From NCBI RefSeq assembly GCF_029227855.1, contig NZ_CP074356.1: a DNA stretch of 64,000 nucleotides; one strand, written 5' to 3'. This document shows positions 2,521 through 38,851 of the stretch, in pieces (within the stretch, counting starts at the first letter, position 1; each line of letters starts with the position of its first letter). Source of the DNA: Escherichia coli (lineage in GTDB: Bacteria > Pseudomonadota > Gammaproteobacteria > Enterobacterales > Enterobacteriaceae). The translations under genes and the position numbers were made by a program. The notes under the pieces are model-generated. The model made no database searches, was not told the origin of the DNA, and was given only the letters and a program-made list of their open reading frames with translations.

Positions 2521-2550
2521 CCCATAATTATTTCCTGTAATTATGGGTTT
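2521..2550 (-). terminator. Candidate Rho-independent terminator downstream of entF
   Basis: Perfect 10-bp inverted repeat cccataatta/taattatggg with 7-nt loop; on the minus strand it is followed by a T-rich run, about 20 bp past the entF stop. Confidence 0.45.
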
Positions 2551-2565
2551 ATCGATAATATTAAT

Positions 2566-5500
2566 TTACCTGTTTAGCGTAGCGCGAATAATCGGCCCAA
2601 TTTTTTCAAACGCCCCTGGAGAGATAATATCCACATGCGCACAATCCTGACGATAGATATCCAGCTCCGCAATCCACGGCGACCAGGCGCGTTCGGGATT
2701 CATACCTTCCTGAAGCGTGCGTTCAGCAACAAACAGCGTCGCTTTACCGTCAAACGGTACACTATGAGCAGTCGTCAGCAGGCGCACAGCATCAGCGTAG
2801 TTGCCTTCAATGGTGGTAAACAACTCCGTTGAAGTACTTCCCTGCTGTGCCGCCAGGAAGGCCTCGCGCTCGCGGTTAATCTCCGCCAGCACTTCCGGGT
2901 CCAGGCCATTAGCCTCTTTTTCCTGCCAGTTTTGCGTTTCTGGCGGCCAGGTATCCAGCAAGCCAAAAAATGCCACCTGTTCGCCACGGGCACGCAGCCG
3001 CGCCGCAATACCCTGCGCCAGCGTACCGCCCAGCGAATAACCCAGCAGGTAATAAGGGCCGTGCGGTTGATGCTCAAGTAACGTTGCCAGATGCGCTTCG
3101 CAGACTTCATCCAGATTTGCCGCGGTCTGCATGGGGCCATTGGGGCGCGGCGACTGAATGCCGATAATCGACCATTGTGGATCGAGATAACGCGAGAGCA
3201 CGCTGAACTGCCAGGCAAAACCGGACGCAGGATGGAAACAAAACAGCGTCGGGCCATTACCTTCACGCAACGGCAGAATGGTTTCGAATCCCATGCGCCG
3301 GGAGCTGTCTTCTTCACCATCAATAATCGTTGCCAGTTTGGCGACAGTTGACGCGACCATCACCTGCCCCGGCGTCACCTGGCGGGTAAACTGCCGACTT
3401 AACTGCGCAGCCAGTTTCATTGCCAGTAGCGAATGACCGCCAAGCGCGAAGAAATCAGCATCGGCATCCTGCACGTCACAACCCAGCAACGACGAGAATG
3501 CCGCGGCGATAATCGTTTCACTGCCCGCTTTCGGCGCACGCCCCGGCGCTTGTGCCTTCAGTTCAGGCAACGGTAAGGCTTTGCGATCCAGCTTGCCGTT
3601 GGCGCTAAGCGGCAACTGCGGAAGTTGCAGCAGAACCACGGGCACCATATGCGGTGGCAATGTTTCGCGCAACTGCGCCTGCAATGCAGTGGTATCCAAC
3701 GGCAGGCCTGATTGCGACACCAGATACCCAACCAACTGACGCGCATCGCCTCCCGTTGCGGCAGCCTGGTTAATAACGCAGGCGTGGGTCACGGCCTGTT
3801 CAACGTCCGGCAGCGCCTGCATCACGCGGTCGATTTCGCCCAGTTCGATACGCTGCCCGCGAATTTTTAGCTGATCGTCACTGCGCCCGAGGTACTCCAC
3901 CGCGCCGTTATCCAGCCAGCGGGCAACGTCTCCGGTACGGTACATCCGTTCACCTGGGGCAAAAGGATCGGCAATAAAGCGGCTGGCGGTCAGATCGGGG
4001 CGTCCGAGATAGCCCTGCGCCAGTTGTATGCCAGTGAGATAGAGATCACCCGCCACACCTGGCGGCACCGGATGCATCATCGCATCAAGAATACGCAGGC
4101 CCGTATTCCACACCGGATAACCAATCGGCACACTACTGCCGCGCACCTGTGCCAGTTCCTCGCCAAAAGCCGGATACCAGCTGACATCTACCGCCGCTTC
4201 CGTCGGGCCATATAGATTATGCAACGGCACGCTGGTTAACTGTTGCCATTCGCGGCATAAATCAGCGGGTAAGGCCTCACCACTACAGAAAACCTGTTTC
4301 AACGTCGCGCAATTCTGGCGAGCGGTTTGCGGCGTCAGCGATGCAACAAATGCCGCCAGCATCGACGGCACAAAGTGCGTAGTCGTTACGCCATATTCGG
4401 CAAAGAATTGCTGCATAGCGAGCGGGTCGCGGTGCGCTTCCGGTTCAGCCATCACCAGTTTAGCCCCGGCAATAAACGGCCAGAAAAACTCCCACACCGA
4501 GACATCAAAACTGCACGGCGTTTTTTGGGCAACGACATCTTCGCCTGTAAGCGGGTAGTGGTTTTGCATCCAAAGCAGGCGGTTAACGATAGCCGTCTGC
4601 CCGACCATTACCCCTTTCGGCCTGCCGGTGGAGCCAGAGGTAAAGATGATATAAGCCGTGTGGTGCGGTTGTGAAAGTTTCAGCGGCGCACTGCCCTGCG
4701 GTGTAAGCGGGGCGTTATAGCAAAGGCTGGTTAAATCTGGAACATCGGCAAAGCGCGGCAGTTGATCGTCGGTGGTGATTAACAGCGACGGACGCGCATC
4801 TTCCAGCATCATTTTCAGGCGATCGTCCGGATAGCCGGTATCCAGCGGTAACCAGGCCGCACCAGCCTCAACAATTGCATGTAGCGCCAGAGTCAAAAAG
4901 ACCGAGCGCGGTAGCGCCACCGCCACGCTGTCGCCTGGTTTAACGCCGCGCTCACGCAGCAGATTCGCCAGCGCCACCACCTGCTCGCGCATTTCCCGAT
5001 AGCTAAACTGGTAACTCGCATCAACCAGCGCCGGAGCATGCGGTGTTTTTGCCGCTTGTTCTGCCACCAGCGCGCTCAGCGTGGTTTCTGGAATCTCAAC
5101 CTGAGTGGCGTTGATCTGCGCCAGCTGCACATATTCACCTGGCAGCATAATATCGACATCGCCGCACAACAGCGCCGGATCCGCGGCGAACTGGGCAATC
5201 AGCATTTTCAGGCGTTCAGCATGCTGGATTAACGTTGGCTCATCGTAACGCTGTTTATTGGCGAGGATCTCAATACTCAAATCACCGTGTTCATCCGGGA
5301 ACAGGGCCAGTTCAAGGTCATTAACCGGACCGGTTGCCAGGGTATGGGTTTGCGTCTGAACACCAGGAATATCCAGTTGGTAATCAAATACCTTGATATT
5401 GAGTACCGGACCGAACAGCGGTTCCTCTCCTGCCGCTCGCCCGCTGTCACGGACAATTTGTTCGGCATCGTAACGTTGATAACGACGCATTTTTTTCAGT

Positions 5501-6447
5501 TGTGCTGCCAGTCGGGTTGCCAGTTCCGGCAGCGTTTCTTGTGCCGCAATGTGAATCCCCAACGGCAAAACGTTGAGCACGGGTCCGGTAGCCGTCAGCG
5601 CCGCCGAGCCCAGTCGACGCATAAAGATAAATCCGGCGGCGTAGTCCATGCGATTGCACAATCGCCCCAGCCACAAGGCTGCCAACGCAAGTGCTAAATC
5701 GGTACGCTGCACACCTGAAAGTTGCGTAGCCAGCTGGCGGAATTCCCCGTCGGTAAACTCCAGTTTCAGGCGCAGAATATCTGCCGAGACGCTGCGCCCC
5801 GGTAAAGGTGCCGGAGAAAGTGACGCGGGCGGCGGCAGTTGACGACGCTGTTCCGTCCAGAATGCCGCATCACGCTGCCAGGCTTCGCTTTCGCGGTATT
5901 GCTGGTACTCTTCCACGACATCAGCGAAAGGCGTAAACGGCGAAGCAGGCGTTGGTTCGCCACGCAGCCATGCGCAGTAAATATTGGCGATCTGGCGGGT
6001 AATGGCCGGGAAACTGAAGCCATCGACCAGCAAATGGTGATAACGCTGATACCAGTACCAGCGGTTATCTGCCACCTGAATGAGCTGATGAAAGACCAGC
6101 GGTTTGCCGCTGTCGGCACGTAGATTTTGCTGTAAATCCGCCTGCATTAATGCCCGCGCAGTACCGTGCGGATCAATGTTGGTTCGCAGGTCGATAATTT
6201 CTGGCAGTTCGAACGTCAGCGCATCATCGACCCACTGCCAGACTTCGCCGTTATCTTCCGTAAAACGCATCCGCAGCGTATCTGCTTGCGCTATTCCGGC
6301 AACCACCGCGCGGGCCAGTAGTGGCGCATCAACCTCTCCGGTTAACTCAACGTAATGCGCCACGCTCCAGGCGGAGGGTAAATCCGACAGTTTTTCTGCC
6401 ATCCAGATGCCGGGCTGTGCGGCGACCAAAGGTAAATGCTGGCTCAT
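2566..6447 (-). CDS. entF: Enterobactin nonribosomal peptide synthetase EntF (C-A-PCP-TE)
   Basis: 1293-aa ORF; adenylation motifs (FTSGSTGRPKG), PCP serine (GGHSLLAMK), thioesterase GYSLGG; matches remembered EntF length and N-terminus MSQHLPLVAAQPGIW. Confidence 0.96.
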   Translation of the reverse strand: MSQHLPLVAAQPGIWMAEKLSDLPSAWSVAHYVELTGEVDAPLLARAVVAGIAQADTLRMRFTEDNGEVWQWVDDALTFELPEIIDLRTNIDPHGTARALMQADLQQNLRADSGKPLVFHQLIQVADNRWYWYQRYHHLLVDGFSFPAITRQIANIYCAWLRGEPTPASPFTPFADVVEEYQQYRESEAWQRDAAFWTEQRRQLPPPASLSPAPLPGRSVSADILRLKLEFTDGEFRQLATQLSGVQRTDLALALAALWLGRLCNRMDYAAGFIFMRRLGSAALTATGPVLNVLPLGIHIAAQETLPELATRLAAQLKKMRRYQRYDAEQIVRDSGRAAGEEPLFGPVLNIKVFDYQLDIPGVQTQTHTLATGPVNDLELALFPDEHGDLSIEILANKQRYDEPTLIQHAERLKMLIAQFAADPALLCGDVDIMLPGEYVQLAQINATQVEIPETTLSALVAEQAAKTPHAPALVDASYQFSYREMREQVVALANLLRERGVKPGDSVAVALPRSVFLTLALHAIVEAGAAWLPLDTGYPDDRLKMMLEDARPSLLITTDDQLPRFADVPDLTSLCYNAPLTPQGSAPLKLSQPHHTAYIIFTSGSTGRPKGVMVGQTAIVNRLLWMQNHYPLTGEDVVAQKTPCSFDVSVWEFFWPFIAGAKLVMAEPEAHRDPLAMQQFFAEYGVTTTHFVPSMLAAFVASLTPQTARQNCATLKQVFCSGEALPADLCREWQQLTSVPLHNLYGPTEAAVDVSWYPAFGEELAQVRGSSVPIGYPVWNTGLRILDAMMHPVPPGVAGDLYLTGIQLAQGYLGRPDLTASRFIADPFAPGERMYRTGDVARWLDNGAVEYLGRSDDQLKIRGQRIELGEIDRVMQALPDVEQAVTHACVINQAAATGGDARQLVGYLVSQSGLPLDTTALQAQLRETLPPHMVPVVLLQLPQLPLSANGKLDRKALPLPELKAQAPGRAPKAGSETIIAAAFSSLLGCDVQDADADFFALGGHSLLAMKLAAQLSRQFTRQVTPGQVMVASTVAKLATIIDGEEDSSRRMGFETILPLREGNGPTLFCFHPASGFAWQFSVLSRYLDPQWSIIGIQSPRPNGPMQTAANLDEVCEAHLATLLEHQPHGPYYLLGYSLGGTLAQGIAARLRARGEQVAFFGLLDTWPPETQNWQEKEANGLDPEVLAEINREREAFLAAQQGSTSTELFTTIEGNYADAVRLLTTAHSVPFDGKATLFVAERTLQEGMNPERAWSPWIAELDIYRQDCAHVDIISPGAFEKIGPIIRATLNR

Positions 6448-6662
6448 TGTGCCTCCTGCAACTGGGTGAAATTCGCCGGTGTCAGAGTACGCCAGTGGGC
6501 TTCAAGCCACTGCTGGCAGGACGCCTGTGACTGCGGCTGACACACAACGACCCAGCCTGCCGGTAAGGCGCATTGTTGCGGCCACAGACTGAATTGCCCC
6601 TGCGCATTGCGCAAAATGTTAAACGCTCCCTGCGGATCATCGAAGGGATTACTGAATGCCAT
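6444..6662 (-). CDS. ybdZ: MbtH-like protein YbdZ
   Basis: 72-aa product MAFSNPFDDPQGAF...SLWPQ...; ATG at 6660-6662 (the ORF track begins two codons upstream at a TTG); 4-bp overlap with the entF start. Confidence 0.88.
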   Translation of the reverse strand: MAFSNPFDDPQGAFNILRNAQGQFSLWPQQCALPAGWVVVCQPQSQASCQQWLEAHWRTLTPANFTQLQEAQ

Positions 6663-6664
6663 AT

Positions 6665-7867
6665 TCAACTCCTGTCATGGAAAAGTGGTTGCCAGAGGTC
6701 GATTAGCCCCTGCATCAAGCCACCGCGCCAACAAAGCGCATCATGTCCGCCGTCAACCTGACGCCAGAAAATGGATTCTTTTATGGGGTGTAATTGCGCA
6801 TACAGCGCCTGATTGGCCCGCATGATCATCGGCTCGCGAATACCCGCTTCCAGCATAATGCGCAGACCTTCGGCGCTAACTTCACCAGCTTTAAGTTGCT
6901 CAAGTAAAACACCTTCTTGCTGCCCGCCCCGATGAGGCCACCAGTACGATCCTGACTGGCTTAATACACAGCCAAAGCGTTCAGGCCAGTGCAGTCCGGC
7001 ATACAGCGCGGAAAGTCCACCAAAACTCTGCCCGGCGACCACGGTGCGATCGGCGCGATCGCTAAAAGGGGCAATAGCTTTCACCAGGGGTAATAACTCT
7101 TGCTGTACTGCCAGCCAGAAATCCGCATTACACGGCAGTTCGTGGGCGCGGTGCGTGGTGTCAATAGCGTCGATCAACACATACACGGCGGGAGGAAGTT
7201 GCTGACGATGGGTCAACGAAGTCAGCACAGGCCAGACAGGCATACTCTGCGCCCAAAATTCGCCATCGAGCAAAACTGCCAGCGGGCGTTCTCCTGCTGT
7301 TGCATCGCCGGTGGTAAAAATCCATACACGGCGTGAATTTTTCAACCGCTCACTTTTCCAGATAATTTCTTTGGCAGGCGTTTCTGGCGCTTGCGGACAA
7401 TCCCATCCCGGTTGTAGGGGCGCTTGCGGCATTTCGAGTGCAGAAACAGCGTGCCCTCGCCCGCCTTTCCAGCTTTGTGGATTCAGCGGATCGGCTATCG
7501 CCTGGGGCAATAGTTTTCGCCAGCCTTCACGTAATTCGAGGCGATCGGGGGATGGTGCAGAAAAAATGTCATCGCGTTCGGTGGGAATAAAACAGTAGCT
7601 GCCGCGCCAGTTGGCATTAAGTTGTGTCGTCCACTGCCAGACGTTGGTACCTGCAATTCGCTGCATCGACTGGGGCTGGCTGTTCTGATGGTGATCGGTC
7701 ACACCAGTGATGTAGACCCATACGCGCTTTATCGTCGAGTATTCTTCAGAACCTTGGGGATCACGCCACCAGAAAGTGACCTCAAACATTTCGTCATTCA
7801 GACGCTGCCATTCCGGGCCATGTTTCGACTGCCACCAGCTCTCACTTCCTACTTTTAACGCCGTCAC
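6665..7867 (-). CDS. fes: Enterochelin esterase Fes
   Basis: 400-aa ORF MTALKVGSESWWQSKHGPEWQRL... with esterase GQSFGG motif; the first codon appears to be GTG. Confidence 0.93.
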   Translation of the reverse strand: MTALKVGSESWWQSKHGPEWQRLNDEMFEVTFWWRDPQGSEEYSTIKRVWVYITGVTDHHQNSQPQSMQRIAGTNVWQWTTQLNANWRGSYCFIPTERDDIFSAPSPDRLELREGWRKLLPQAIADPLNPQSWKGGRGHAVSALEMPQAPLQPGWDCPQAPETPAKEIIWKSERLKNSRRVWIFTTGDATAGERPLAVLLDGEFWAQSMPVWPVLTSLTHRQQLPPAVYVLIDAIDTTHRAHELPCNADFWLAVQQELLPLVKAIAPFSDRADRTVVAGQSFGGLSALYAGLHWPERFGCVLSQSGSYWWPHRGGQQEGVLLEQLKAGEVSAEGLRIMLEAGIREPMIMRANQALYAQLHPIKESIFWRQVDGGHDALCWRGGLMQGLIDLWQPLFHDRS

Positions 7868-7916
7868 ACCATAACCCCATGTTTACTGTGAAATTTTTCA
7901 TTGATTGCAGAAATAT

Positions 7917-7939
7917 ATTGATAATATTATTGATAACTA
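7917..7939. promoter_or_regulatory. Fur box-like site in the fes-fepA divergent promoter region
   Basis: attgataatattattgataacta contains GATAAT-type hexamer repeats resembling the Fur consensus; located between divergent iron-regulated genes. Confidence 0.55.
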
Positions 7940-8109
7940 TTTGCATTTGCAATAGCGTAATGGCGCGCCGTGGGAAGCGCGGACATTAATTAACCAACTG
8001 CACTGCGTGTCTTTCAGGATCAAAGGTTTTCGCGGTAGCGGGATGCGTCGTGTTGATGACGACCATGCCCGACAGTTGCAATTCGTGGCAAAAATGCAGG
8101 AATAAAACA

Positions 8110-10350
8110 ATGAACAAGAAGATTCATTCCCTGGCCTTGTTGGTCAATCTGGGGATTTATGGGGTAGCACAGGCACAAGAGCCAACCGATACTCCTGTTT
8201 CACATGACGATACCATTGTCGTTACCGCCGCCGAGCAGAACTTGCAGGCACCTGGCGTTTCGACCATCACCGCAGATGAAATCCGCAAAAACCCGGTTGC
8301 CCGCGATGTGTCGGAGATCATCCGTACCATGCCAGGCGTTAACCTGACCGGTAACTCCACCAGTGGTCAGCGTGGGAATAACCGACAGATTGATATTCGC
8401 GGCATGGGTCCGGAAAACACGCTGATTTTGATTGACGGCAAGCCGGTAAGCAGCCGTAACTCGGTGCGTCAGGGCTGGCGTGGCGAGCGCGATACCCGTG
8501 GTGATACCTCCTGGGTGCCACCTGAAATGATTGAACGTATTGAAGTTCTGCGTGGTCCGGCAGCTGCGCGTTATGGCAACGGCGCGGCGGGCGGCGTGGT
8601 TAACATCATTACCAAAAAAGGCAGTGGTGAGTGGCACGGCTCGTGGGACGCATATTTCAATGCGCCAGAACATAAAGAGGAAGGTGCCACCAAACGCACT
8701 AACTTTAGCCTCACCGGTCCGCTGGGCGACGAATTCAGCTTCCGCTTGTATGGCAACCTCGACAAAACTCAGGCTGACGCGTGGGATATCAACCAGGGCC
8801 ATCAGTCCGCGCGTGCCGGAACGTATGCCACGACGTTACCAGCCGGGCGCGAAGGGGTGATCAATAAAGATATTAACGGCGTGGTGCGCTGGGACTTCGC
8901 ACCATTACAATCGCTGGAACTGGAAGCAGGTTACAGCCGCCAGGGTAACCTGTATGCGGGCGATACCCAGAACACCAACTCTGACTCCTATACCCGCTCG
9001 AAATATGGCGATGAAACCAACCGTCTGTATCGCCAGAACTACTCGCTGACCTGGAACGGCGGCTGGGATAACGGCGTGACCACCAGCAACTGGGTGCAGT
9101 ACGAACACACCCGTAACTCGCGTATTCCGGAAGGTCTGGCGGGCGGTACCGAAGGGAAATTTAACGAAAAAGCGACACAGGATTTCGTCGATATCGATCT
9201 CGATGACGTGATGCTGCACAGCGAAGTTAACCTGCCGATTGATTTCCTCGTTAACCAGACGCTGACGCTGGGTACGGAGTGGAATCAGCAGCGGATGAAG
9301 GACTTGAGTTCCAACACCCAGGCGCTCACCGGGACGAATACCGGCGGCGCTATTGATGGCGTGAGTGCCACCGACCGTAGCCCGTATTCAAAAGCAGAAA
9401 TTTTCTCGCTGTTTGCCGAAAACAATATGGAGCTGACTGACAGCACCATCGTAACGCCGGGGCTGCGTTTCGATCATCACAGCATTGTTGGCAATAACTG
9501 GAGTCCGGCTCTAAACATATCGCAAGGTTTAGGCGATGACTTCACGCTGAAAATGGGCATTGCCCGTGCTTATAAAGCGCCGAGTCTGTACCAGACTAAC
9601 CCAAACTACATTCTCTACAGTAAAGGTCAGGGCTGCTATGCCAGCGCGGGCGGCTGCTATCTGCAAGGTAATGATGACCTGAAAGCGGAAACCAGCATCA
9701 ACAAAGAGATTGGTCTGGAGTTCAAACGCGACGGCTGGCTGGCGGGTGTGACCTGGTTCCGTAACGATTATCGCAATAAGATTGAAGCGGGCTATGTGGC
9801 TGTAGGGCAAAACGCAGTCGGCACCGATCTCTATCAGTGGGATAACGTACCGAAAGCGGTGGTTGAAGGTCTGGAAGGATCGTTAAACGTACCGGTTAGC
9901 GAAACGGTGATGTGGACCAATAACATCACTTATATGCTGAAGAGTGAAAACAAAACCACGGGCGACCGTTTGTCGATCATCCCGGAGTATACGTTGAACT
10001 CAACGCTGAGCTGGCAGGCACGGGAAGATTTGTCGATGCAAACAACCTTCACCTGGTACGGCAAGCAGCAGCCGAAGAAGTACAACTATAAAGGTCAGCC
10101 AGCGGTTGGACCGGAAACCAAAGAAATCAGTCCGTACAGCATTGTGGGTCTGAGCGCGACCTGGGATGTGACGAAGAATGTCAGTCTGACCGGCGGCGTG
10201 GACAACCTGTTCGACAAACGTTTGTGGCGTGCAGGTAATGCCCAGACCACGGGCGATCTGGCAGGAGCCAACTATATCGCCGGTGCCGGGGCGTATACCT
10301 ATAACGAGCCGGGACGTACGTGGTATATGAGCATTAATACTCACTTCTGA
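8110..10350 (+). CDS. fepA: TonB-dependent ferric enterobactin outer-membrane receptor FepA
   Basis: 746-aa product MNKKIHSLALLVNLGIYGVAQA..., TonB box DTIVVTA, C-terminal ...YMSINTHF; the ORF-track start at 8050 is an upstream extension. Confidence 0.96.
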   Translation: MNKKIHSLALLVNLGIYGVAQAQEPTDTPVSHDDTIVVTAAEQNLQAPGVSTITADEIRKNPVARDVSEIIRTMPGVNLTGNSTSGQRGNNRQIDIRGMGPENTLILIDGKPVSSRNSVRQGWRGERDTRGDTSWVPPEMIERIEVLRGPAAARYGNGAAGGVVNIITKKGSGEWHGSWDAYFNAPEHKEEGATKRTNFSLTGPLGDEFSFRLYGNLDKTQADAWDINQGHQSARAGTYATTLPAGREGVINKDINGVVRWDFAPLQSLELEAGYSRQGNLYAGDTQNTNSDSYTRSKYGDETNRLYRQNYSLTWNGGWDNGVTTSNWVQYEHTRNSRIPEGLAGGTEGKFNEKATQDFVDIDLDDVMLHSEVNLPIDFLVNQTLTLGTEWNQQRMKDLSSNTQALTGTNTGGAIDGVSATDRSPYSKAEIFSLFAENNMELTDSTIVTPGLRFDHHSIVGNNWSPALNISQGLGDDFTLKMGIARAYKAPSLYQTNPNYILYSKGQGCYASAGGCYLQGNDDLKAETSINKEIGLEFKRDGWLAGVTWFRNDYRNKIEAGYVAVGQNAVGTDLYQWDNVPKAVVEGLEGSLNVPVSETVMWTNNITYMLKSENKTTGDRLSIIPEYTLNSTLSWQAREDLSMQTTFTWYGKQQPKKYNYKGQPAVGPETKEISPYSIVGLSATWDVTKNVSLTGGVDNLFDKRLWRAGNAQTTGDLAGANYIAGAGAYTYNEPGRTWYMSINTHF

Positions 10351-11164: not shown

Positions 11165-11635
11165 TTCGCCCGCAGCCATTACTGACCGCGGGCGAAAGTG
11201 TAAAGCAGGTGCCTTACCATCCTGACCTGACAACCGGATATGCGGGGATTGCTCCCCGCACAACGGCTACTTCTTCGGTTCGTAAGCGAGAACAGCCTTA
11301 AACTCAATATTACGTTCCTTCACCGTAAACTCACACAGCGAGTCGCGGACCAGAAGCGTAAATCCCAGCACCGTTAAACACAGCACTATGACTGCCACAA
11401 GGGCATATTTCGTCAGCATGTTTATATTGCCTCCATGCGAAGAAGGGACTACCATCCGAGTTGTTCAGGTTTGGGTAGGTAGCCCCAGGGTTGATAGAAA
11501 TATCGTCCTGGGGCTTCATCTTTCCAGACCTCAGAGTTAACCTGAAACCGGAAAGCTTCAGGCACCCGCCGTTATCTTACCCTTCCTCAGCAAAATAGCT
11601 GTTTATTTATACAGTGAATCCTGTTTCGGACTTCT
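11165..11635. repeat. Tandem repeat unit 1 carrying a hok/sok-type type I toxin-antitoxin locus
   Basis: About 470 bp that realigns with 11670-12137 at roughly 95% identity by eye; contains hok copy 1. Confidence 0.85.
11267..11419 (-). CDS. hokE: Hok-family small membrane toxin (HokE-like), copy 1
   Basis: 50-aa product [50 protein letters not shown]; an overlapping mok-frame ORF is present (11331..11519). Confidence 0.85.
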
Positions 11636-11669: not shown

Positions 11670-12137
11670 TCGCCCGCAGCCATTGCTGACCGCGGGCGAA
11701 AGTGTAAAGCAGGTGCCTTACCACCCTGACCTGACAACCGGATATGCGGGGATTACTCCCCGCACAACGGCTACTTCTTCGGTTCGTAAGCGAGAACAGC
11801 CTTAAACTCAATATTACGTTCCTTCACCGTAAACTCACACAGCGAGTCTCCGACCAGAAGCGTAAATCCCAGTACCGTCAAACACAGCACTATGACTGCC
11901 ACAAGGGCATATTTCGTCAGCATGTTTATATTGCCTCCATGCGAAGAAGGGACTACCATCCAAATTGTCTGGTTTGGAGTGGCAGCCCCAGGGTTGATAG
12001 AAATATCTCCTGGGGCTTCATCTTTCCAGACCTCAGAGTAAACCTGAAACCGGAAAGCTTCAGGCACCCGCCGTTATCTTACCCTTCCTCAGCAAAATGG
12101 CTGTTTATTTATACAGTGAGTCCTGTTTCGGACTTCT
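11670..12137. repeat. Tandem repeat unit 2 carrying a second hok/sok-type locus
   Basis: Direct repeat of 11165-11635 with scattered substitutions. Confidence 0.85.
11771..11923 (-). CDS. Hok-family small membrane toxin, copy 2
   Basis: 50-aa product identical to copy 1 except G for R at the LLV(G/R)DSL position. Confidence 0.8.
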
Positions 12138-16442: not shown

Positions 16443-16901
16443 TTACTTACGGCCCGTAAACGGGCTGCCCGGATAGGGAATCGATAACTGCTCTCCCATT
16501 TTATCCTCTTCAAGCTGGTGCTTTATGTAATCCTGTATCTTCGCCGTGTTCTTACCCACTGTATCGACGTAGTACCCTCTGCACCAGAACTCCCTGTTCC
16601 TGTATTTGAATTTCAAATCACCAAACTGCTCGTAAAGCATCAGACTGCTTTTCCCTTTCAGATATCCCATAAACCCGGATACGCTCATTTTGGGCGGGAT
16701 CTCCACAAGCATATGGATATGATCTGCACAGCATTCAGCTTCCAGAATCCGTACGCTTTTCCACTCACACAGCTTTCTCAAAATACTGCCTATTGCTCTA
16801 CGCTTCTCTCTGTAGAACACCTGTCTTCGGTATTTTGGCGCAAAAACTATGTGATATTTACAGTTCCATCGGGTGTGCGCTAAGCTCTTTTCGTTCCCCA
16901 T
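16443..16901 (-). CDS. tnpA: IS200 transposase TnpA (HUH Y1 transposase)
   Basis: Product MGNEKSLAHTRWNCKYHIVFAPKYRRQVFY...HIHMLVEIPPKMSVS...; HxH motif and catalytic Tyr context. Confidence 0.9.
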   Translation of the reverse strand: MGNEKSLAHTRWNCKYHIVFAPKYRRQVFYREKRRAIGSILRKLCEWKSVRILEAECCADHIHMLVEIPPKMSVSGFMGYLKGKSSLMLYEQFGDLKFKYRNREFWCRGYYVDTVGKNTAKIQDYIKHQLEEDKMGEQLSIPYPGSPFTGRK

Positions 16902-27734: not shown

Positions 27735-29636
27735 ATGTCAACCGGATTACGTTTCACACTGGAAGTGGACGGCCTGCCGCCGGATGCTTTTGCGGTGGTT
27801 TCCTTTCATCTGAACCAGTCACTCTCTTCGCTCTTTTCCCTCGATCTCTCCCTGGTCAGCCAGCAGTTTCTCTCCCTTGAATTTGCGCAGGTGCTGGACA
27901 AAATGGCCTACCTGACGATATGGCAGGGCGATGAAGTACAGCGCCGGGTGAAAGGCGTGGTGACCTGGTTTGAACTCGGGGAGAACGACAAAAACCAGAT
28001 GCTGTACAGCATGAAGGTGCACCCGCCGCTGTGGCGTGCCGGTCTGCGCCAGAACTTCCGTATCTTCCAGAACGAGGACATCAAAAGCATCCTCGGCACG
28101 ATGTTGCAGGAAAACGGGGTGACCGAATGGAGTCCGCTGTTCAGCGAGCCGCATCCTTCCCGTGAGTTTTGTGTCCAGTACGGTGAGACTGATTACGATT
28201 TCCTGTGCCGGATGGCGGCGGAGGAAGGCATCTTCTTTTATGAGGAGCATGCTTACAAAAGTACCGACCAGAGCCTGGTGCTGTGCGACACAGTCCGCCA
28301 TCTGCCCGAATCTTTTGAAATCCCATGGAACCCGAACACCCGTACCGAGGTGAGCACCCTCTGCATCAGCCAGTTCCGCTACAGCGCACAAATCCGCCCT
28401 TCTTCCGTGGTGACCAAAGACTACACCTTTAAACGCCCCGGCTGGGCCGGACGTTTTGAACAGGAAGGCCAGCACCAGGACTACCAGCGCACGCAGTATG
28501 AAGTGTATGACTACCCCGGACGTTTCAAGGGTGCCCACGGGCAGAACTTTGCCCGCTGGCAGATGGACGGCTGGCGAAACAATGCAGAAACCGCGCGGGG
28601 AATGAGTCGCTCGCCGGAGATATGGCCGGGACGACGAATTGTGCTGACGGGGCATCCGCAGGCGAACCTGAACCGGGAATGGCAGGTGGTGGCAAGTGAA
28701 CTGCACGGCGAACAGCCACAGGCGGTGCCAGGACGGCAGGGAGCGGGGACGGCGCTGGAGAACCATTTTGCGGTGATCCCGGCAGACAGAACATGGCGAC
28801 CACAGCCGTTGCTGAAACCGCTGGTCGACGGCCCGCAGAGCGCTGTCGTGACAGGACCGGCAGGCGAGGAAATCTTCTGCGACGAACATGGTCGCGTGCG
28901 GGTGAAGTTCAACTGGGACCGCTATAACCCGTCAAACCAGGACAGTTCGTGCTGGATCCGTGTGGCACAGGCGTGGGCAGGCACCGGTTTTGGCCACCTG
29001 GCGATACCGCGTGTGGGTCAGGAGGTGATTGTAGACTTCCTCAACGGCGATCCGGACCAGCCGATCATTATGGGGCGCACCTACCACCAGGAAAACCGCA
29101 CCCCCGGCAGCCTGCCGGGAACAAAGACGCAGATGACCATCCGCTCCAAAACGTACATGGGCAGCGGATTTAATGAGCTGAAGTTTGATGATGCGACAGG
29201 GAGAGAACAGGTCTACATCCACGCGCAGAAGAACATGGATACCGAAGTGCTCAACGACCGTACCACCACCGTAAAACACGATCACCACGAAACCGTAAAA
29301 AATGACCAGACGGTCACGATCCAGGAAGGTAACCGCCTTCTTACGGTGGAAAAAGGCCACAAGATCACCGGAGTACTGAAAGGGTCTTTATCTGAGGATG
29401 TCTTTCAGGACAGAGGCACGATTGCCGGTTCGGTGCATGTTGACGCTGTAAACAATGGTGGCGAAGGCGACGGTATACAGGCTTATACGGCGATTAAGGA
29501 AATTTTGCTGGCCGTGGAGGAAAGCAAAATTGCGCTGACGCCGGATGGCATTCAGCTACAGGTCGGGGAATCGACGGTAATCAGGCTGTCGAAGGATGGC
29601 ATCACCATCGTGGGCGGTTCTGTTTTCATCAACTGA
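27735..29636 (+). CDS. vgrG: Type VI secretion spike protein VgrG (Rhs-element Vgr protein)
   Basis: 633-aa ORF MSTGLRFTLEVDGLPPDAFAVVSFHLNQSLSSLFSLDLSL...; gp27/gp5-like organisation, immediately upstream of Eag/PAAR-Rhs genes. Confidence 0.88.
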   Translation: MSTGLRFTLEVDGLPPDAFAVVSFHLNQSLSSLFSLDLSLVSQQFLSLEFAQVLDKMAYLTIWQGDEVQRRVKGVVTWFELGENDKNQMLYSMKVHPPLWRAGLRQNFRIFQNEDIKSILGTMLQENGVTEWSPLFSEPHPSREFCVQYGETDYDFLCRMAAEEGIFFYEEHAYKSTDQSLVLCDTVRHLPESFEIPWNPNTRTEVSTLCISQFRYSAQIRPSSVVTKDYTFKRPGWAGRFEQEGQHQDYQRTQYEVYDYPGRFKGAHGQNFARWQMDGWRNNAETARGMSRSPEIWPGRRIVLTGHPQANLNREWQVVASELHGEQPQAVPGRQGAGTALENHFAVIPADRTWRPQPLLKPLVDGPQSAVVTGPAGEEIFCDEHGRVRVKFNWDRYNPSNQDSSCWIRVAQAWAGTGFGHLAIPRVGQEVIVDFLNGDPDQPIIMGRTYHQENRTPGSLPGTKTQMTIRSKTYMGSGFNELKFDDATGREQVYIHAQKNMDTEVLNDRTTTVKHDHHETVKNDQTVTIQEGNRLLTVEKGHKITGVLKGSLSEDVFQDRGTIAGSVHVDAVNNGGEGDGIQAYTAIKEILLAVEESKIALTPDGIQLQVGESTVIRLSKDGITIVGGSVFIN

Positions 29637-29663
29637 TTCACTCAGATTATCAGGGAGTATTTT

Positions 29664-30125
29664 ATGCAGTTCACTTTTAATGAAGGCCACATTCAACTGC
29701 CGTCTCAATGGCAGGATCAGTCAATGCAGGTCCTGGTGTCCACAGATAACAGTGGCATCAACCTGGTCATTACCCGCGAAGCCGTTCCACAGGGAACCCT
29801 GACACCAGAGCTGTACCAGGAAACGCTGGCGCTGTACCAGGGCAAACTTGATGGGTACACCGAACATGCCTGCCGGGAAATCACTCTGGCAGAGGCCCCG
29901 GCCTGGCTGCTGGATTATTCCTGGAACGGTCCGGAAGATGAGGGGAATCAGGGGCGGATTAGCCAGATAGCCGTATTCCAGCGGCGTGGAGATACGCTGC
30001 TGACCTTCACTTTCAGCACCTCCTTATCCCTGAAGAACAGTCAAAAGACGATGCTGCTGGAGGTGATAAAGAGCTTCACCCCGTTGCCACCGGAGAATGA
30101 CATCCAAAAGGACCAGCCGCGCTGA
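29664..30125 (+). CDS. DUF1795/Eag-family T6SS effector chaperone (EagR-like)
   Basis: 153-aa ORF placed between vgrG and a prePAAR-Rhs gene, the canonical position of Eag chaperones; assignment from context and overall similarity, no HMM run. Confidence 0.7.
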   Translation: MQFTFNEGHIQLPSQWQDQSMQVLVSTDNSGINLVITREAVPQGTLTPELYQETLALYQGKLDGYTEHACREITLAEAPAWLLDYSWNGPEDEGNQGRISQIAVFQRRGDTLLTFTFSTSLSLKNSQKTMLLEVIKSFTPLPPENDIQKDQPR

Positions 30126-30144
30126 CATAAACGAGGGATAACAC

Positions 30145-33100
30145 ATGAGTGAAGGACCAGGCGGGCCACAGGGAGCGACCGCAGGCGGTACGCTGGCAAT
30201 GCGAATGCTGTCACAGCAGGCGATGGTCGCCAGCCAGATGAAACGGGCAGCCAACGACAAAGCCATTGCACAGATGCTGGCATCAAAAAAGTCCGGCCCC
30301 CCCGCCGCCAGGCTGGGCGATGAAATTCAGCACAAGAGTTTTTTGGGGGCGCTGGCAGGGGCCGTGCTGGGGGCGATAGTGACCATCGCAGAAGGTTGCC
30401 TGATTATGGCCGCCTGTGCCACCGGCCCTTATGCGCTGGTTCTGGTGCCTGCGCTGATGTATGCCAGCTATAAGGCGAGTGATTATGTGGAGGAGAAACA
30501 GAACCAGCTTGAATCATGGATAAACAGCTTTTGTGACACGGACGGCGCCATCAATACCGGTTCTGAAAATGTAAACATTAACGGAAAGCCCGCTGCCAGG
30601 GCCGCCGTCACCCTTCCCCCTCCTCCCCCACCTGGAGCAATACCTGAAATCCCACAGGGGGAACCCTCATGGGGTGATATTGCCACTGACCTGCTTGAAT
30701 CGGCAGCGGAAAAAGCAGTACCACTGGCGAAGGCCTGGGGGAACGCTGTTATCACCCTGACGGACAGCAATGCCGGTTTTATGGATCGCGTCAGCGCCGG
30801 CGCATCGCTTCTGTTTCCCGCCGGTCCGGTATTAATGGAGTTTGCCACCATGGTGGGCGGGCGTGGCGAAATCAAAAAAGATGTGGATTTCCCGGAAGCC
30901 GGTGAGGACACGGCGCTCTGCGACAAGGAGAACAAACCACCGAGGATAGCCCAGGGCAGCAGCAACGTCTTTATCAACAATCAGCCCGCCGCGCGCAAGG
31001 GCGACAAACTGGAGTGCAGCGCGGCAATCGTGGAAGGTTCGCCGGACGTCTTTATTGGCGGTGAACAGGTGACCTATCTGGATATCCAGCCAGAGTTCCC
31101 GCCGTGGCAGAGAATGATCCTGGGGGGAATAACGATAGCCAGCTATCTTCTGCCGCCAGCGGGACTGCTGGGAAAACTGAAGAATCTGGCGAGACTCGGC
31201 AAACTGGGGAACCTGCTGGGGAAAAGCGGGAAGCTGCTGGGGGCAAAGCTCGGCGCGTTGCTGGGAAAAACAGATAAGTCGTTAAAAAGTATTGCCAATA
31301 AAGTCATCAGATGGGTAACAGATCCTGTCGATCCGGTAACCGGCGCGTACTGCGACGAACGTACCGACTTTACGCTGGGCCAGACCCTCCCCCTCTCCTT
31401 CACCCGTTTCCACAGTTCTGTACTGCCGCTGCATGGCCTGACCGGCGTGGGCTGGAGCGACTCCTGGAGCGAATACGCCTGGGTGCGTGAACAGGGAAAC
31501 CGGGTGGATATCATCAGCCAGGGAGCCACGCTGAACTTCGCCTTCGACGGTGACAGTGATACGGCGGTTAACCCGTATCACGCCCAGTACATTCTGCGCC
31601 GCCGCGATGATTATCTGGAGCTGTTCGACAGGGATGCACTGAGCAGCCGCTTCTTTTATGACGCCTTTCCGGGAATGCGTCTGCGCCACCCGGTGACTGA
31701 CGATACCAGCGATGACCGCCTGGCACACAGCCCCAATGACCGGATGTACATGCTGGGCGGGATGAGCGACACCGCCAGCAACCGCATCACGTTTGAGCGC
31801 GACAGCCAGTACCGGATCACAGGTGTCAGTCACACCGACGGGATCCGGCTTAAACTGACGTACCACGCCAGCGGCTACCTGAAAGCCATTCACCGCACGG
31901 ATAACGGCATACAGACGCTGGCGACCTACGAACAGGATGCGCGGGGGCGGCTGACAGAAGCGGATGCGCGGCTGGACTACCACCTGTTTTATGAGTACGA
32001 CGCTGCGGACCGGATCATCCGCTGGTCCGATAACGACCAGACGTGGAGCCGTTTCACCTACGATGAACAGGGCCGGTGCGTGAATGTCACCGGGGCGGAG
32101 GGCTATTACAACGCCACGCTGGACTATGGTGACGGCTGCACCACCGTGACGGACGGCAAGGGCATTCACCGTTATTACTATGATCCTGACGGCAATATTC
32201 TGCGGGAAGCAGCGCCGGACGGCAGCACCACCACGTATGAATGGGATGAATTCCATCACCTGCTGGCCCGTCACTCCCCTGCCGGGCGGGTGGAGAAATT
32301 TGAATACAACGCCGCACACGGTCAGTTAAGCCGTTACACGGCGGCAGACGGCGCGGAGTGGCAGTACCGCTATGATGAGCGCGGCCTGCTCAGCAACATC
32401 ACCGACCCTGCCGGGCAGACGTGGACACAGCAGTGTGATGAACGCGGCCTGCCGGTAAGTCTGGTGTCGCCACAGGGCGAAGAGACCCGGCTGGCATACA
32501 CCGCTCAGGGGCTGCTGTCGGGAATATTCCGCCAGGATGAACGGCGTCTGGGCATAGAGTACGACCACCACAACCGGCCGGAAACACTCACCGACGTGAT
32601 GGGCCGTGAACACCACACCGAATACAGCGGTCACGACCTGCCGGTGAAGATGCGCGGCCCCGGCGGTCAGTCAGTGCGGTTGCAGTGGCAGCAGCACCAT
32701 AAACTGAGTGGCCTTGAGCGCACTGGCACCGGCGCGGAAGGGTTCAGCTATGACCGCCACGGCAACCTGCTGGCCTGGACGGACGGCAATGGTGTTGTCT
32801 GGACAATGGAGTACGGCCCGTTCGATTTGCCGGTGGCGCGAACGGACGGTGAAGGCCACCGCTGGCAGTACCGCTATGATAAAGACACGCTGCAACTGAC
32901 AGAAGTCATTAACCCGCAGGGTGAGTCATATCTTTATGTTCTGGATAACTGCGGCCGGGTGACGGAAGAGCATGACTGGGGCGGCGTGGTCTGGCGTTAC
33001 CGCTATGACGCCGATGGCCTGTGTACCGCCAGGGTCAACGGCCTGGAGGAAACCATCCTCTACAGCCGGGACGACGCAGGCCGCCTGGCAGAAGTCATCA

Positions 33101-34974
33101 CGCCGGAAGGCAAAACGCAGTATGCGTATGACAAATCCGGCAGGCTGACGGGTATCTTCAGCCCGGACGGCACATCACAGCGCACCGGCTATGACGAACG
33201 CGGGCGGGTGAATGTCACCACTCAGGGCCGACGGGCCATTGAATACCACTACCCCGATGAACACACCGTCATCCGCTGTATCCTGCCACCGGAAGATGAA
33301 CGCGACAGACACCCCGGTGAATCCCTGCTGAAAACCACGTACCGCTACAACGCAGCCGGAGAACTGGCAGAGGTCATCCTGCCGGAGGATGAGACGCTGA
33401 CGTTCAGCCGTGATGAGGCAGGACGTGAAGTGCTCCGGCACAGTAACCGGGGTTTTGCCTGTGAGCAGGGCTGGAATGCAGCCGGTCAGCTTACCAGCCA
33501 GCGCGCCGGACTTTTCCCGGCAGAAGCCACATGGGGCGGGCTGCTCCCCTCACTGGTACGGGAGTACCGTTACGACAGCGCGGGCAATGTGTCGGCTGTC
33601 ACCAGCCGGGAAGATTACGGACGGGAAACTCGCCGGGAGTACCGGCTGGACCGGAACGGCCAGGTCACGGCGGTGACAGCCTCAGGCACCGGGCTGGGCT
33701 ATGGCGAAGGCGATGAGTCCTATGGCTATGACAGTTGTGGCTACCTGAAGGCGCAGTCTGCGGGCAGGCACCGGATAAGTGAAGAGACTGAGCGGTATGC
33801 CGGAGGCCACCGGCTGAAACAGGCCGGAAACACGCAGTATGACTATGACGCCGCAGGCCGGATGGTCAGCCGCACCAGACACCGTAACGGCTATCGCCCG
33901 GAAACAGAGCGGTTCCGGTGGGACAGCCGGGACCAGCTGACCGGGTATTGCAGCGCACAGGGTGAACAGTGGGAATACCGCCACGACGCCAGCGGCAGAC
34001 GGACGGAAAAACGCTGCGACCGGAAGAAAATCCGCTTCACGTACCTGTGGGACGGCGACAGTATTGCGGAAATCCGGGAATACCGCGATGATAAACTGTA
34101 CAGCGTAAGGCACCTGGTGTTTAACGGCTTTGAGCTGATAAGCCAGCAGTTTAGCCGGGTACGGCAGCCGCACCCGTCCGTGGCCCCGCAGTGGGTGACG
34201 CGGACGAATCATGCGGTGAGCGATCTGACGGGCCGTCCGCTGATGCTCTTTAACAGTGAAGGTAAAACCGTCTGGCGACCGGGACAGACCAGCCTGTGGG
34301 GGCTGGCACTCAGCCTGCCCGCGGACACCGGCTACCCGGACCCGCGCGGGGAACTGGACGCGGAAGCCGACCCCGGCCTGCTGTATGCAGGACAGTGGCA
34401 GGATGCGGAATCCGGGCTGTGCTATAACCGGTTCCGGTATTACGAGCCGGAAACAGGGATGTACCTGGTGAGTGATCCGCTGGGGTTGCTGGGGGGTGAG
34501 CAGACTTACCGGTATGTGCCGAATCCGTGTGGGTATGTTGATCCTTTGGGATTAGCAACATGTCCCATAATCAGACAACGGGTGCTGGCTAACCTTGAAG
34601 CCAGTCGGGCAGCAAGGGCTGCATCTAATTTTGGTAAGAAAAATATCTATGATTTTATCAAGGCAACTCAATCTGCTATCCCTGGCACCTCTATCCCAAA
34701 ATCTTTTGAGATTATAACTGCTAATGGTACTTTCTGGGTACACCCAAATGCTACAAAACATATGGCTGAATATTTGACTCGGAACGGTCTCTCACATTCA
34801 ACTTCTGTAGAGAGCCAAATAATGTTAACAAGTTTTCACGAAGCTGTAAGTTTGGCTAGTGCTCAAGGTATAAAGTATGAAGAAATGATGAATGTTGGCG
34901 GCTGGGAACTAGTATTTAGTCAAGCTAAATCTGACTCGGCTTTATCAGTTATTAAACATGCTCTTTATAAATGA
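30145..34974 (+). CDS. prePAAR/PAAR-domain Rhs polymorphic toxin (T6SS effector) with variable C-terminal toxin domain
   Basis: 1609 aa; prePAAR motif AARLGDEIQH near the N-terminus with hydrophobic helices; PAAR-like segment (GDKLECSAAIVEGSPDVFIGGE); many YD/RHS repeats; PxxxxDPxGL core-end motif (NPCGYVDPLGL) followed by about 150 aa of divergent C-terminus. Confidence 0.9.
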   Translation: MSEGPGGPQGATAGGTLAMRMLSQQAMVASQMKRAANDKAIAQMLASKKSGPPAARLGDEIQHKSFLGALAGAVLGAIVTIAEGCLIMAACATGPYALVLVPALMYASYKASDYVEEKQNQLESWINSFCDTDGAINTGSENVNINGKPAARAAVTLPPPPPPGAIPEIPQGEPSWGDIATDLLESAAEKAVPLAKAWGNAVITLTDSNAGFMDRVSAGASLLFPAGPVLMEFATMVGGRGEIKKDVDFPEAGEDTALCDKENKPPRIAQGSSNVFINNQPAARKGDKLECSAAIVEGSPDVFIGGEQVTYLDIQPEFPPWQRMILGGITIASYLLPPAGLLGKLKNLARLGKLGNLLGKSGKLLGAKLGALLGKTDKSLKSIANKVIRWVTDPVDPVTGAYCDERTDFTLGQTLPLSFTRFHSSVLPLHGLTGVGWSDSWSEYAWVREQGNRVDIISQGATLNFAFDGDSDTAVNPYHAQYILRRRDDYLELFDRDALSSRFFYDAFPGMRLRHPVTDDTSDDRLAHSPNDRMYMLGGMSDTASNRITFERDSQYRITGVSHTDGIRLKLTYHASGYLKAIHRTDNGIQTLATYEQDARGRLTEADARLDYHLFYEYDAADRIIRWSDNDQTWSRFTYDEQGRCVNVTGAEGYYNATLDYGDGCTTVTDGKGIHRYYYDPDGNILREAAPDGSTTTYEWDEFHHLLARHSPAGRVEKFEYNAAHGQLSRYTAADGAEWQYRYDERGLLSNITDPAGQTWTQQCDERGLPVSLVSPQGEETRLAYTAQGLLSGIFRQDERRLGIEYDHHNRPETLTDVMGREHHTEYSGHDLPVKMRGPGGQSVRLQWQQHHKLSGLERTGTGAEGFSYDRHGNLLAWTDGNGVVWTMEYGPFDLPVARTDGEGHRWQYRYDKDTLQLTEVINPQGESYLYVLDNCGRVTEEHDWGGVVWRYRYDADGLCTARVNGLEETILYSRDDAGRLAEVITPEGKTQYAYDKSGRLTGIFSPDGTSQRTGYDERGRVNVTTQGRRAIEYHYPDEHTVIRCILPPEDERDRHPGESLLKTTYRYNAAGELAEVILPEDETLTFSRDEAGREVLRHSNRGFACEQGWNAAGQLTSQRAGLFPAEATWGGLLPSLVREYRYDSAGNVSAVTSREDYGRETRREYRLDRNGQVTAVTASGTGLGYGEGDESYGYDSCGYLKAQSAGRHRISEETERYAGGHRLKQAGNTQYDYDAAGRMVSRTRHRNGYRPETERFRWDSRDQLTGYCSAQGEQWEYRHDASGRRTEKRCDRKKIRFTYLWDGDSIAEIREYRDDKLYSVRHLVFNGFELISQQFSRVRQPHPSVAPQWVTRTNHAVSDLTGRPLMLFNSEGKTVWRPGQTSLWGLALSLPADTGYPDPRGELDAEADPGLLYAGQWQDAESGLCYNRFRYYEPETGMYLVSDPLGLLGGEQTYRYVPNPCGYVDPLGLATCPIIRQRVLANLEASRAARAASNFGKKNIYDFIKATQSAIPGTSIPKSFEIITANGTFWVHPNATKHMAEYLTRNGLSHSTSVESQIMLTSFHEAVSLASAQGIKYEEMMNVGGWELVFSQAKSDSALSVIKHALYK

Positions 34975-35504: not shown

Positions 35505-35983
35505 TTTTAGTGTTTGAAACTTACCGAGAGATGATAGCTATGAATGAATACAAAAACATCCATCTTGGAGGAAACAATGGAATGTTAATCCATTAAAAAA
35601 CATACTTCAATATCTTTAGTGAAGAAAGAGTTGTATGAAAGAAATATATCTTATGTGAGCGACATGATGCATGCTAATTATATTATTGGCCGGAAATTTT
35701 ATGATGATAGCAAAAAGGAGGGGTTATTTCTGTAAGAATGGATATACCCGCAGGGTTTGAACCAGACATTTATTTGTTGAAGTCTAAGATCCAAATGGAA
35801 GCATTTATATCCCTCAGATATTATGCGTTGACGGGTTGATAAAGATACTTTTAGAGGGTTAATAAATGGAGAACGTATAATAAATCTCTTAAACAAACTA
35901 TAACCTGTACTAATGAAAAAAATGGGAATAGATAAGTTAATAGCCTATTCTAAAAATGGTAAAGTGGTTTTACTTCCAAAATA

Positions 35984-38840: not shown

Positions 38841-38851
38841 GGAGTGATAGT

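What the first reader, a model, noticed from the sequence alone, without database searches (positions are those of the whole stretch)
7868..8109. Fur-box-like repeats in the fes-fepA bidirectional control region
The 242-bp divergent region contains attgataatattattgataacta, a close match to GATAAT-hexamer Fur sites, as expected for iron-repressed enterobactin genes.
Basis: partly seen in the sequence, partly recalled or inferred. Interest (0 to 1): 0.25.

Follow-up and report, generated by a model that had tools for sequence, protein, structure and literature searches.

The report
Known Fur operator between fes and fepA
This is the long-known binding site of the iron-sensing repressor Fur in the shared control region of the E. 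coli enterobactin genes fes and fepA; it is real, strongly conserved and entirely ordinary.

Summary
The observation and its interpretation both hold, and the feature is textbook. The window is E. coli. The 242-bp gap 7868-8109 lies between fes (minus strand) and fepA (plus strand) and matches K-12 MG1655 at 241 of 242 bases. The quoted string sits at 7917-7939.

A Fur matrix built from 16 other K-12 sites, with fepA-fes left out, puts its best hit of the whole 64-kb window at 7929-7947 (ATTGATAACTATTTGCATT, 17.5 bits). The next best hit anywhere scores 10.6. A weaker phased site lies at 7917-7935 (7.0 bits). The three-hexamer reading GATAAT-ATTATT-GATAAC (16/18) is also the window's best.

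The published DNase I footprint of Fur on K-12 maps to 7912-7959. In 70 of 73 loci from other Enterobacterales, found through a fepA coding pattern, the orthologous 19-mer is the top hit. A block at about 7917-7960 is nearly invariant even where Fes is only about 50% identical.

The operator lies over my inferred, overlapping fes and fepA promoter hexamers. One refinement: the strongest dimer site extends 8 bp past the quoted string. The rest of the gap is the characterised 146-nt fepA 5' UTR.

Novelty: already known. Interest: low.

The parts
6665..7867 (-). fes (enterochelin esterase) coding sequence, GTG start at 7867, 400 aa
   Evidence: ORF list; RefSeq annotation of identical or near-identical genomes and of K-12
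7868..8109 (.). fes-fepA divergent intergenic control region, 242 bp
   Evidence: 241/242 identical to MG1655
7875..7878 (-). GGGG, likely Shine-Dalgarno of fes, 7 nt before the GTG; conserved across genera
   Evidence: sequence; conservation profile and alignment; assignment is inference
7901..7930 (+). Upstream fepA promoter-like site: -35 TTGATT 7901-7906, 18-bp spacer, -10 TATTAT 7925-7930; predicted start near 7937
   Evidence: consensus scan; consistent with two mapped starts 19 bp apart (PMC4469952 citing Pettis 1988)
7924..7952 (-). fes promoter, inferred: -35 TTGCAA 7947-7952, 17-bp spacer, -10 TAATAT (reverse complement of 7924-7929); predicted start near 7917
   Evidence: read from the sequence. 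It is 8/12 to consensus, so below the scan threshold. The predicted start spacing fits PMC4469952. Inference.
7917..7939 (.).
7916..7936 (.). Direct repeat TATTGATAA x2 (7916-7924 and 7928-7936), 12 bp start to start
7929..7947 (.). Strongest predicted Fur dimer site (9-1-9 inverted repeat) ATTGATAACTATTTGCATT, 17.5 bits, centre 7938. It equals the strongest K-12 site of Chen et al. at 611889 (U00096.2).
   Evidence: PMC2189734 Table 4
7917..7935 (.). Second, weaker Fur site ATTGATAATATTATTGATA, 7.0 bits, centre 7926 (12 bp from the strong site). A 0.7-bit site is centred at 7932.
7912..7959 (.). Published DNase I footprint of Fur on K-12 (611868-611915 in U00096.2), converted to window coordinates
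   Evidence: PMC2189734 Table 3, citing Hunt et al. 1994. The conversion was checked by recovering 16 other palindromic sites with the same offsets. The 48 bp are identical in 4951 of 5389 E. coli genomes.
7917..7960 (.). Block nearly invariant across Enterobacterales (phylogenetic footprint)
   Evidence: 59 intergenic regions from loci found through a fepA coding pattern
7964..8109 (+). fepA 5' UTR; the predominant mRNA 5' end is at -146 from the ATG
   Evidence: PMC11979758; the coordinate is computed from the ATG at 8110
7964..7981 (+). Stem-loop I at the very 5' end of fepA mRNA: CGCGC 7964-7968 pairs with GCGCG 7977-7981
   Evidence: MFE fold; described as a 5-bp stem-loop in PMC11979758; kept with different stem sequences in other genera
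8098..8101 (+). AGGA, Shine-Dalgarno of fepA
   Evidence: sequence; inference
8110..10350 (+). fepA (ferric enterobactin outer-membrane receptor) coding sequence

Best explanation
The AT-rich repeats are the operator at which iron-loaded Fur represses the two divergent enterobactin operons, fes-ybdZ-entF-fepE and fepA-entD. A high-affinity 19-bp inverted repeat (7929-7947) and weaker overlapping sites phased 6 and 12 bp away (centres 7932 and 7926) let several Fur dimers occupy about 48 bp (7912-7959). That stretch holds the two nearly coincident -10 hexamers of the opposed promoters (7924-7930), the fes -35 (7947-7952), both start points about 20 bp apart, and the DNA just upstream of the main fepA mRNA 5' end (7964). 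When iron is plentiful, bound Fur keeps RNA polymerase off all of these at once; when iron is scarce, Fur leaves and both operons are transcribed. Shown here: the sequence match, its rank, its phasing and its conservation. Taken from the literature on the identical K-12 sequence: Fur binding and iron- and Fur-dependent repression. Inferred from the sequence: the exact promoter hexamers.
For: The gap is 241/242 identical to K-12 and the operator is 100% identical. A leave-one-out Fur matrix from 16 other K-12 sites places its top hit of the 64-kb window at 7929-7947, at 17.5 bits against a next best of 10.6. Further sites are centred 6 and 12 bp away. Expected hits at that score are 0.027 per window, and 4 of 2000 shuffles of the gap reach it. 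The hexamer array is unique in the window. [quoted passage not shown] A fepA promoter fusion is Fur-repressed (PMC4676285). The two start points are 19 bp apart and the promoters overlap almost completely (PMC4469952). In 70 of 73 loci from other Enterobacterales, anchored in fepA coding sequence, the orthologous site is the best matrix hit in up to 2.5 kb (14.0-27.2 bits). A block at about 7917-7960 is nearly invariant although Fes falls to 43-53% identity. The 48-bp footprint is identical in 4951 of 5389 E. coli genomes.
Against: Nothing substantive. The strong site has 4 mismatches to the 9-1-9 consensus. Its 17.5 bits lies below every one of the 16 training sites (19.5-29.5 bits). The classical 19-mer count is an undistinguished 12/19 by my hand count. 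5% of whole-window shuffles reach 17.5 bits somewhere. Binding and repression were not measured for this strain, and the original footprinting papers (Hunt 1994, Escolar 1998) could not be read here. The conserved block runs about 10 bp beyond what the matrix explains.
Confidence: 0.97

Rival explanations
1. The repeats are only AT-rich promoter architecture (overlapping -10 and -35 hexamers of two back-to-back promoters), and their likeness to Fur boxes is incidental.
For: The -10 hexamers of both inferred promoters lie inside the repeats (7924-7930; and the sequence). Fur-box and -10 consensus sequences are both AT-rich. The classical consensus count is only 12/19 by my hand count.
Against: The independent matrix ranks the site first in 64 kb. 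A published Fur footprint covers exactly this stretch of identical K-12 DNA. Conservation covers positions that matter for the Fur palindrome but not for any promoter hexamer, such as ATTTGCATT. Promoter function and operator function are not exclusive here; they coincide by design.
Confidence: 0.01
2. A different or additional regulator (for example CRP, OmpR or H-NS, or an unidentified factor) is what the conserved block mainly serves, with Fur binding only part of it.
For: The invariant block extends to about 7960, about 10 bp past the matrix cluster. A CRP-like TGTGA-N6-TCATT lies at 7887-7902. OmpR is reported to control fepA directly in Yersinia (abstract of PMC10342277). From memory, unverified: the Hunt 1994 abstract reports mutations outside the promoter determinants that lowered both fes and fepA expression.
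Against: The extension lies inside the published Fur footprint (7912-7959). It also holds the inferred fes -35 and a candidate -10 for the 7964 start, which would explain its conservation without another factor. The CRP-like element is poorly conserved, at 30-60% per position, and polymorphic at 7891 within Escherichia. No tool result here shows another factor.
Confidence: 0.05

Closest known systems
E. coli K-12 fepA-fes bidirectional Fur operator (Pettis et al. 1988; Hunt et al. 1994; Escolar et al. 1998; re-analysed in Chen et al. 2007, PMC2189734)
   Same: It is the same locus. The gene order is the same, the gap is 242 bp in both, 241/242 bases are identical, and the footprinted 48 bp are 100% identical.
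   Different: One base differs (7891 A in the window, C in K-12), 21 bp outside the footprint. The window comes from a non-K-12 strain that is nearly identical to JNEC-KY178.
The other enterobactin-cluster Fur operators (fepB-entC, fepD-entS)
   Same: They are also divergent, iron-repressed promoter pairs with clusters of overlapping 19-bp Fur sites at 6-bp spacing (PMC2189734). Their strongest sites have the same 9-1-9 form.
   Different: fepB-entC has two separate protected regions. Here one cluster serves both directions because the two promoters overlap almost completely.
fepA 5' UTR regulatory hub (stem-loop I and the II-a/b/c junction; PMC11979758)
   Same: The right-hand 146 nt of the reported interval (7964-8109) is this UTR. 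The predicted fold reproduces the 5-bp 5'-terminal hairpin and the three-way junction.

Membership tests
Fur operator (E. coli Fur box cluster) | Sequence match to the Fur motif (19-bp 9-1-9 inverted repeat, or three or more NATWAT hexamers) well above background | tested here: met
   17.5 bits at 7929-7947 with a leave-one-out matrix, rank 1 in the window. The hexamer array scores 16/18 and is unique in the window.
Fur operator (E. coli Fur box cluster) | Several overlapping sites phased by 6 bp (or 3 bp) | tested here: met
   Positive-scoring sites are centred at 7926, 7932 and 7938. Chen et al. count 4 sites in 37 bp for K-12.
Fur operator (E. coli Fur box cluster) | Overlap with the -35, -10 or start point of the regulated promoter(s) | tested here: met
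   The cluster covers the predicted -10 of both promoters, the fes -35 and both predicted starts (and the sequence). Promoter overlap and the 19-bp start spacing come from PMC4469952. The hexamer assignments are inferred.
Fur operator (E. coli Fur box cluster) | Direct, metal-dependent binding of Fur (footprint, gel shift or ChIP) | not testable with these tools
   Published for the identical K-12 sequence: footprint 611868-611915 (PMC2189734 Table 3 citing Hunt 1994).
Fur operator (E. coli Fur box cluster) | Iron- and Fur-dependent repression of the flanking genes | not testable with these tools
   [quoted passage not shown] A fepA-lacZ fusion is Fur-repressed (PMC4676285).
Fur operator (E. 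coli Fur box cluster) | Conservation of the site at orthologous loci | tested here: met
   It is the top matrix hit at the orthologous position in 70 of 73 loci across Enterobacterales. The block at about 7917-7960 is nearly invariant.
Bidirectional overlapping promoter pair | Divergent genes with back-to-back promoters whose core elements overlap | tested here: inconclusive
   The sequence supports -10 hexamers offset by 1 bp on opposite strands. Only the fepA-direction promoter passes the consensus scan. The start points were not measured here; the literature gives 19 bp between them.
fepA 5' UTR stem-loop I | A 5-bp hairpin at the very 5' end of the -146 transcript | tested here: met
   The MFE fold pairs 7964-7968 with 7977-7981. 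The hairpin is present at the orthologous position in 44 of 65 distinct sequences, against 2.2 in shuffles, in 13 stem versions.

The most novel reading that the evidence does not exclude
The roughly 13 invariant bases on the fepA side of the Fur matrix cluster (7948-7960, TTGCAATAGCGTA), together with the covarying 5'-terminal hairpin (7964-7981), might mark an extra conserved control step not explained by Fur alone. One possibility is a second DNA-binding factor. Another is a deliberately weak, invariant -10 (TAGCGT) for the main fepA start at 7964, whose use depends on the state of the overlapping promoters. This would echo the unexplained promoter-external mutations that, from memory, Hunt et al. 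reported in 1994.
Probability: 0.1. Interest if true: 0.3.

Novelty: already known. Interest (0 to 1): 0.07.

Why it matters
It matters little beyond confirmation. The site is one of the founding examples of Fur operators and of a shared operator for divergent promoters. The small added value is a leave-one-out check showing the site stands out without circularity. A cross-family comparison also shows the operator is almost invariant from Escherichia to Serratia, Rahnella, Pantoea and Hafnia. That makes it a good positive control for regulatory-site scans.

Tried and rejected
A plain match count to the classical 19-mer GATAATGATAATCATTATC does not single the site out. By my hand count it scores 12/19, it is absent from the listed 13-14/19 hits, and 162 window positions score 12 or more. 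I rejected that count as a test because its register and weighting are wrong for overlapping 9-1-9 sites.

An Rfam scan of 7500-8500 found nothing at E <= 1. The terminator scan found none, and the promoter scan found only the fepA-direction promoter. The 15-mer pattern TGATAAYNATTDNCA is unique in the window but not significant on its own, since 38 of 100 shuffles have a match.

The original papers, Hunt 1994 (PMC205592) and Escolar 1998 (PMC107206), are not held. The footprint coordinates therefore come second-hand from Chen 2007. That paper has no supplementary files held.

RNAalifold on a MAFFT alignment of the hairpin region predicted no pairs, because loop-length differences put the 3' arms out of register. 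I replaced it with a per-sequence hairpin search with shuffles.

I considered a CRP site at 7887-7902. It is poorly conserved and polymorphic, so I did not pursue it. The short out-of-frame ATG ORF before the fes GTG was rejected because the ATG is not conserved while the GGGG is.

Full report
**1. What is there**

The window is Escherichia coli. A 601-bp query around the finding matches 5414 of 5426 complete E. coli genomes, always annotated fes | fepA. The window differs from strain JNEC-KY178 at only 2 positions over about 61 kb.

Around the finding the gene order is entF 2566-6447(-), ybdZ 6444-6668(-), fes 6665-7867(-, GTG start), fepA 8110-10350(+) and entD (+). This is the K-12 enterobactin cluster read on the opposite strand.

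The gap 7868-8109 is exactly 242 bp, as in K-12, and 241/242 identical to MG1655. The single difference is 7891 A versus C. The quoted string attgataatattattgataacta occurs once, at 7917-7939. It holds a perfect 9-bp direct repeat, TATTGATAA, at 7916-7924 and 7928-7936, set in a 40-bp imperfect palindrome at 7906-7945.

**2. Is it a Fur site by score?**

A simple match count to the classical 19-mer is not informative. By my hand count the best register scores 12/19, the site is absent from the listed 13-14/19 hits, and 108 positions in the window score exactly 12.

I therefore built a matrix that does not contain this site. I took the strongest-site coordinates at 16 other experimentally supported K-12 Fur loci from Chen et al. 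2007 (PMC2189734, Table 4). These were fepD-entS, entC, fecA, fecI, fhuF, sodA, cir, ryhB, gpmA, fhuA, exbB, sufA, bfd, mntH, fiu and yoeA. I converted the coordinates to NC_000913.3, fetched the DNA and confirmed that every 19-mer is a 9-1-9 palindrome of the AATGATAATnATTATCATT type.

Scanning the window with this matrix gives the following:
- The best hit of all about 64,000 positions is 7929-7947, ATTGATAACTATTTGCATT, at 17.5 bits.
- The runner-up anywhere is 10.6 bits, at 36068.
- Within the gap there are further positive sites centred at 7926 (7.0 bits) and 7932 (0.7 bits), which are 12 and 6 bp from the main centre at 7938.

The expected number of hits at 17.5 bits or more is 0.027 per window. 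That score is reached in 10 of 200 dinucleotide shuffles of the whole window and in 4 of 2000 shuffles of the gap alone.

GATAAT-ATTATT-GATAAC at 7920-7937 scores 16/18, the only such position in the window, with none in 30 block shuffles. One honest caveat: 17.5 bits is below all 16 training sites, which score 19.5-29.5 bits.

**3. Published evidence on the identical K-12 sequence**

Chen et al. list the Fur DNase I footprint of Hunt et al. 1994 at 611868-611915 (U00096.2). They place the strongest predicted site at 611889, with 18.7 bits and 4 overlapping sites in 37 bp, among the strong clusters of the whole K-12 genome. With the coordinate offset validated, these map to window 7912-7959 and centre 7938, exactly the site my independent matrix picks.

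Further published points:
- fepA and fes belong to a Fur-controlled gene set (Fur-1 iModulon). [quoted passage not shown]
- A fepA promoter fusion is Fur-repressed (PMC4676285).
- The two mapped start points are 19 bp apart and the promoters overlap almost completely (PMC4469952 citing Pettis et al. 1988).

The original papers by Hunt 1994 and Escolar 1998 are not held. From memory, the Hunt abstract reports one fes promoter, two tandem fepA promoters and a single Fur site controlling all of them.

**4. Anatomy and mechanism**

On the plus strand a promoter-like site has -35 TTGATT (7901-7906) and -10 TATTAT (7925-7930), predicting a start near 7937. On the minus strand I read -35 TTGCAA (7947-7952), a 17-bp spacer and -10 TAATAT (complement of 7924-7929), predicting a start near 7917. 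The two -10 hexamers are thus offset by 1 bp on opposite strands, and the predicted starts are about 20 bp apart. That agrees with the published 19 bp. These hexamer assignments are inference.

The predominant fepA mRNA 5' end reported by primer extension is at -146 (PMC11979758), which is window 7964. A candidate -35 TTGATA (7930-7935) and weak -10 TAGCGT (7953-7958) would fit it; this too is inference.

The Fur cluster and footprint (7912-7959) cover all of these elements. A few Fur dimers on one operator can therefore occlude every promoter of both operons when iron is sufficient.

**5. Conservation**

I avoided selecting on the site itself. I scanned one genome per species with a degenerate pattern for the FepA peptide PGVSTITADEI, about 140 bp inside the fepA coding sequence. 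That returned 80 readable loci.

In 70 of the 73 loci with at least 450 nt upstream, the best matrix hit in up to 2.5 kb is the orthologous 19-mer (14.0-27.2 bits, median 17.5). The best hit elsewhere in the same stretches has a median of 1.2 bits. This holds in Citrobacter, Enterobacter, Klebsiella, Kosakonia and Kluyvera. It also holds in Pantoea, Erwinia, Tatumella, Serratia, Rahnella and Hafnia, where Fes is only 43-53% identical.

An alignment of 59 intergenic regions shows near-invariance from about 7917 to 7960 and rapid decay on both sides. The weaker left site is kept above 5 bits in 41 of 70 loci and degenerates outside Enterobacteriaceae. Within E. coli the 48-bp footprint is identical in 4951 of 5389 genomes. 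By comparison, only 1640 of 5414 genomes are at least 99% identical over the 601-bp surroundings.

**6. The rest of the interval**

Positions 7964-8109 are the 146-nt fepA 5' UTR. [quoted passage not shown] The MFE fold of 7964-8154 reproduces that architecture, although the overall energy is not unusual (z = -0.16).

The 5'-terminal hairpin pairs CGCGC 7964-7968 with GCGCG 7977-7981. It is present at the orthologous place in 44 of 65 distinct sequences, against 2.2 +/- 1.6 in shuffles. It occurs in 13 stem versions, including CGCTC/GAGCG, CCCGT/ACGGG, GCCCA/TGGGC and TGCCCAA/TTGGGCA, so it is structurally conserved. Rfam has no family here.

**7. Verdict**

The feature is the classical fepA-fes Fur operator, already known and already footprinted, in a strain whose control region is effectively identical to K-12.

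There are two refinements:
- The best single Fur dimer site extends 8 bp beyond the quoted string.
- The functional and conserved operator is about 45-48 bp long.

One small loose end remains. The invariant block runs about 10 bp beyond what the matrix explains. This is most simply accounted for by the footprint extent, the fes -35 and a candidate -10 for the 7964 start.

Interest is low.

Noticed in passing
window 7964-7981: A GC-rich hairpin (CGCGC/GCGCG) sits exactly at the reported predominant 5' end of fepA mRNA and equals the published stem-loop I. Across Enterobacterales it is kept with different stem sequences: 13 versions, present in 44 of 65 distinct sequences against about 2 in shuffles. 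It is missing in genera with short intergenic regions (Kluyvera, Pluralibacter, Yokenella, Pseudocitrobacter). I did not see this covariation described in the paper passages I read.
   Followed up: partly
window 7948-7960: TTGCAATAGCGTA is nearly invariant across families, although the Fur matrix gives no positive site centred there. It lies inside the published footprint. It holds the inferred fes -35 and a possible weak -10 (TAGCGT) for the 7964 start.
   Followed up: partly
window 7887-7902 (SNP at 7891): The only difference from K-12 in the gap (A here, C in K-12, T in another Escherichia) falls in a CRP-like TGTGA-N6-TCATT. The window's allele matches the CRP half-site better. The element is only 30-60% conserved across genera.
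   Followed up: partly
window 7871-7885 (minus strand): The fes leader just before the GTG start is conserved (TAAACATGGGGTTAT). GGGG lies 7 nt before the GTG and looks like the ribosome-binding site, which supports the 400-aa GTG start. An out-of-frame ATG there is not conserved.
   Followed up: partly
window 2548-2565: TTTATCGATAATATTAAT scores 15/18 as a three-hexamer Fur-like array. It lies right after the entF stop and upstream of fepE, and it is not among the top 19-mer matrix hits.
   Followed up: no
window 11267-11419 and 11771-11923: Two tandem hokE toxin genes, each with an adjacent pseudogene, lie downstream of entD. K-12 has an IS186 at this point.
   Followed up: no
window about 27735-40926, including 36068-36086: A type VI secretion vgrG / Rhs toxin island with Rhs and PAAR fragments and an ISAs1 transposase lies between cusS and nfrB. 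The second-best Fur matrix hit of the window (10.6 bits) falls inside a hypothetical gene of this island, probably by chance; about 0.75 such hits are expected per window.
   Followed up: no
window 16443-16901: An IS200C-type tnpA is inserted between ybdG and pheP.
   Followed up: no
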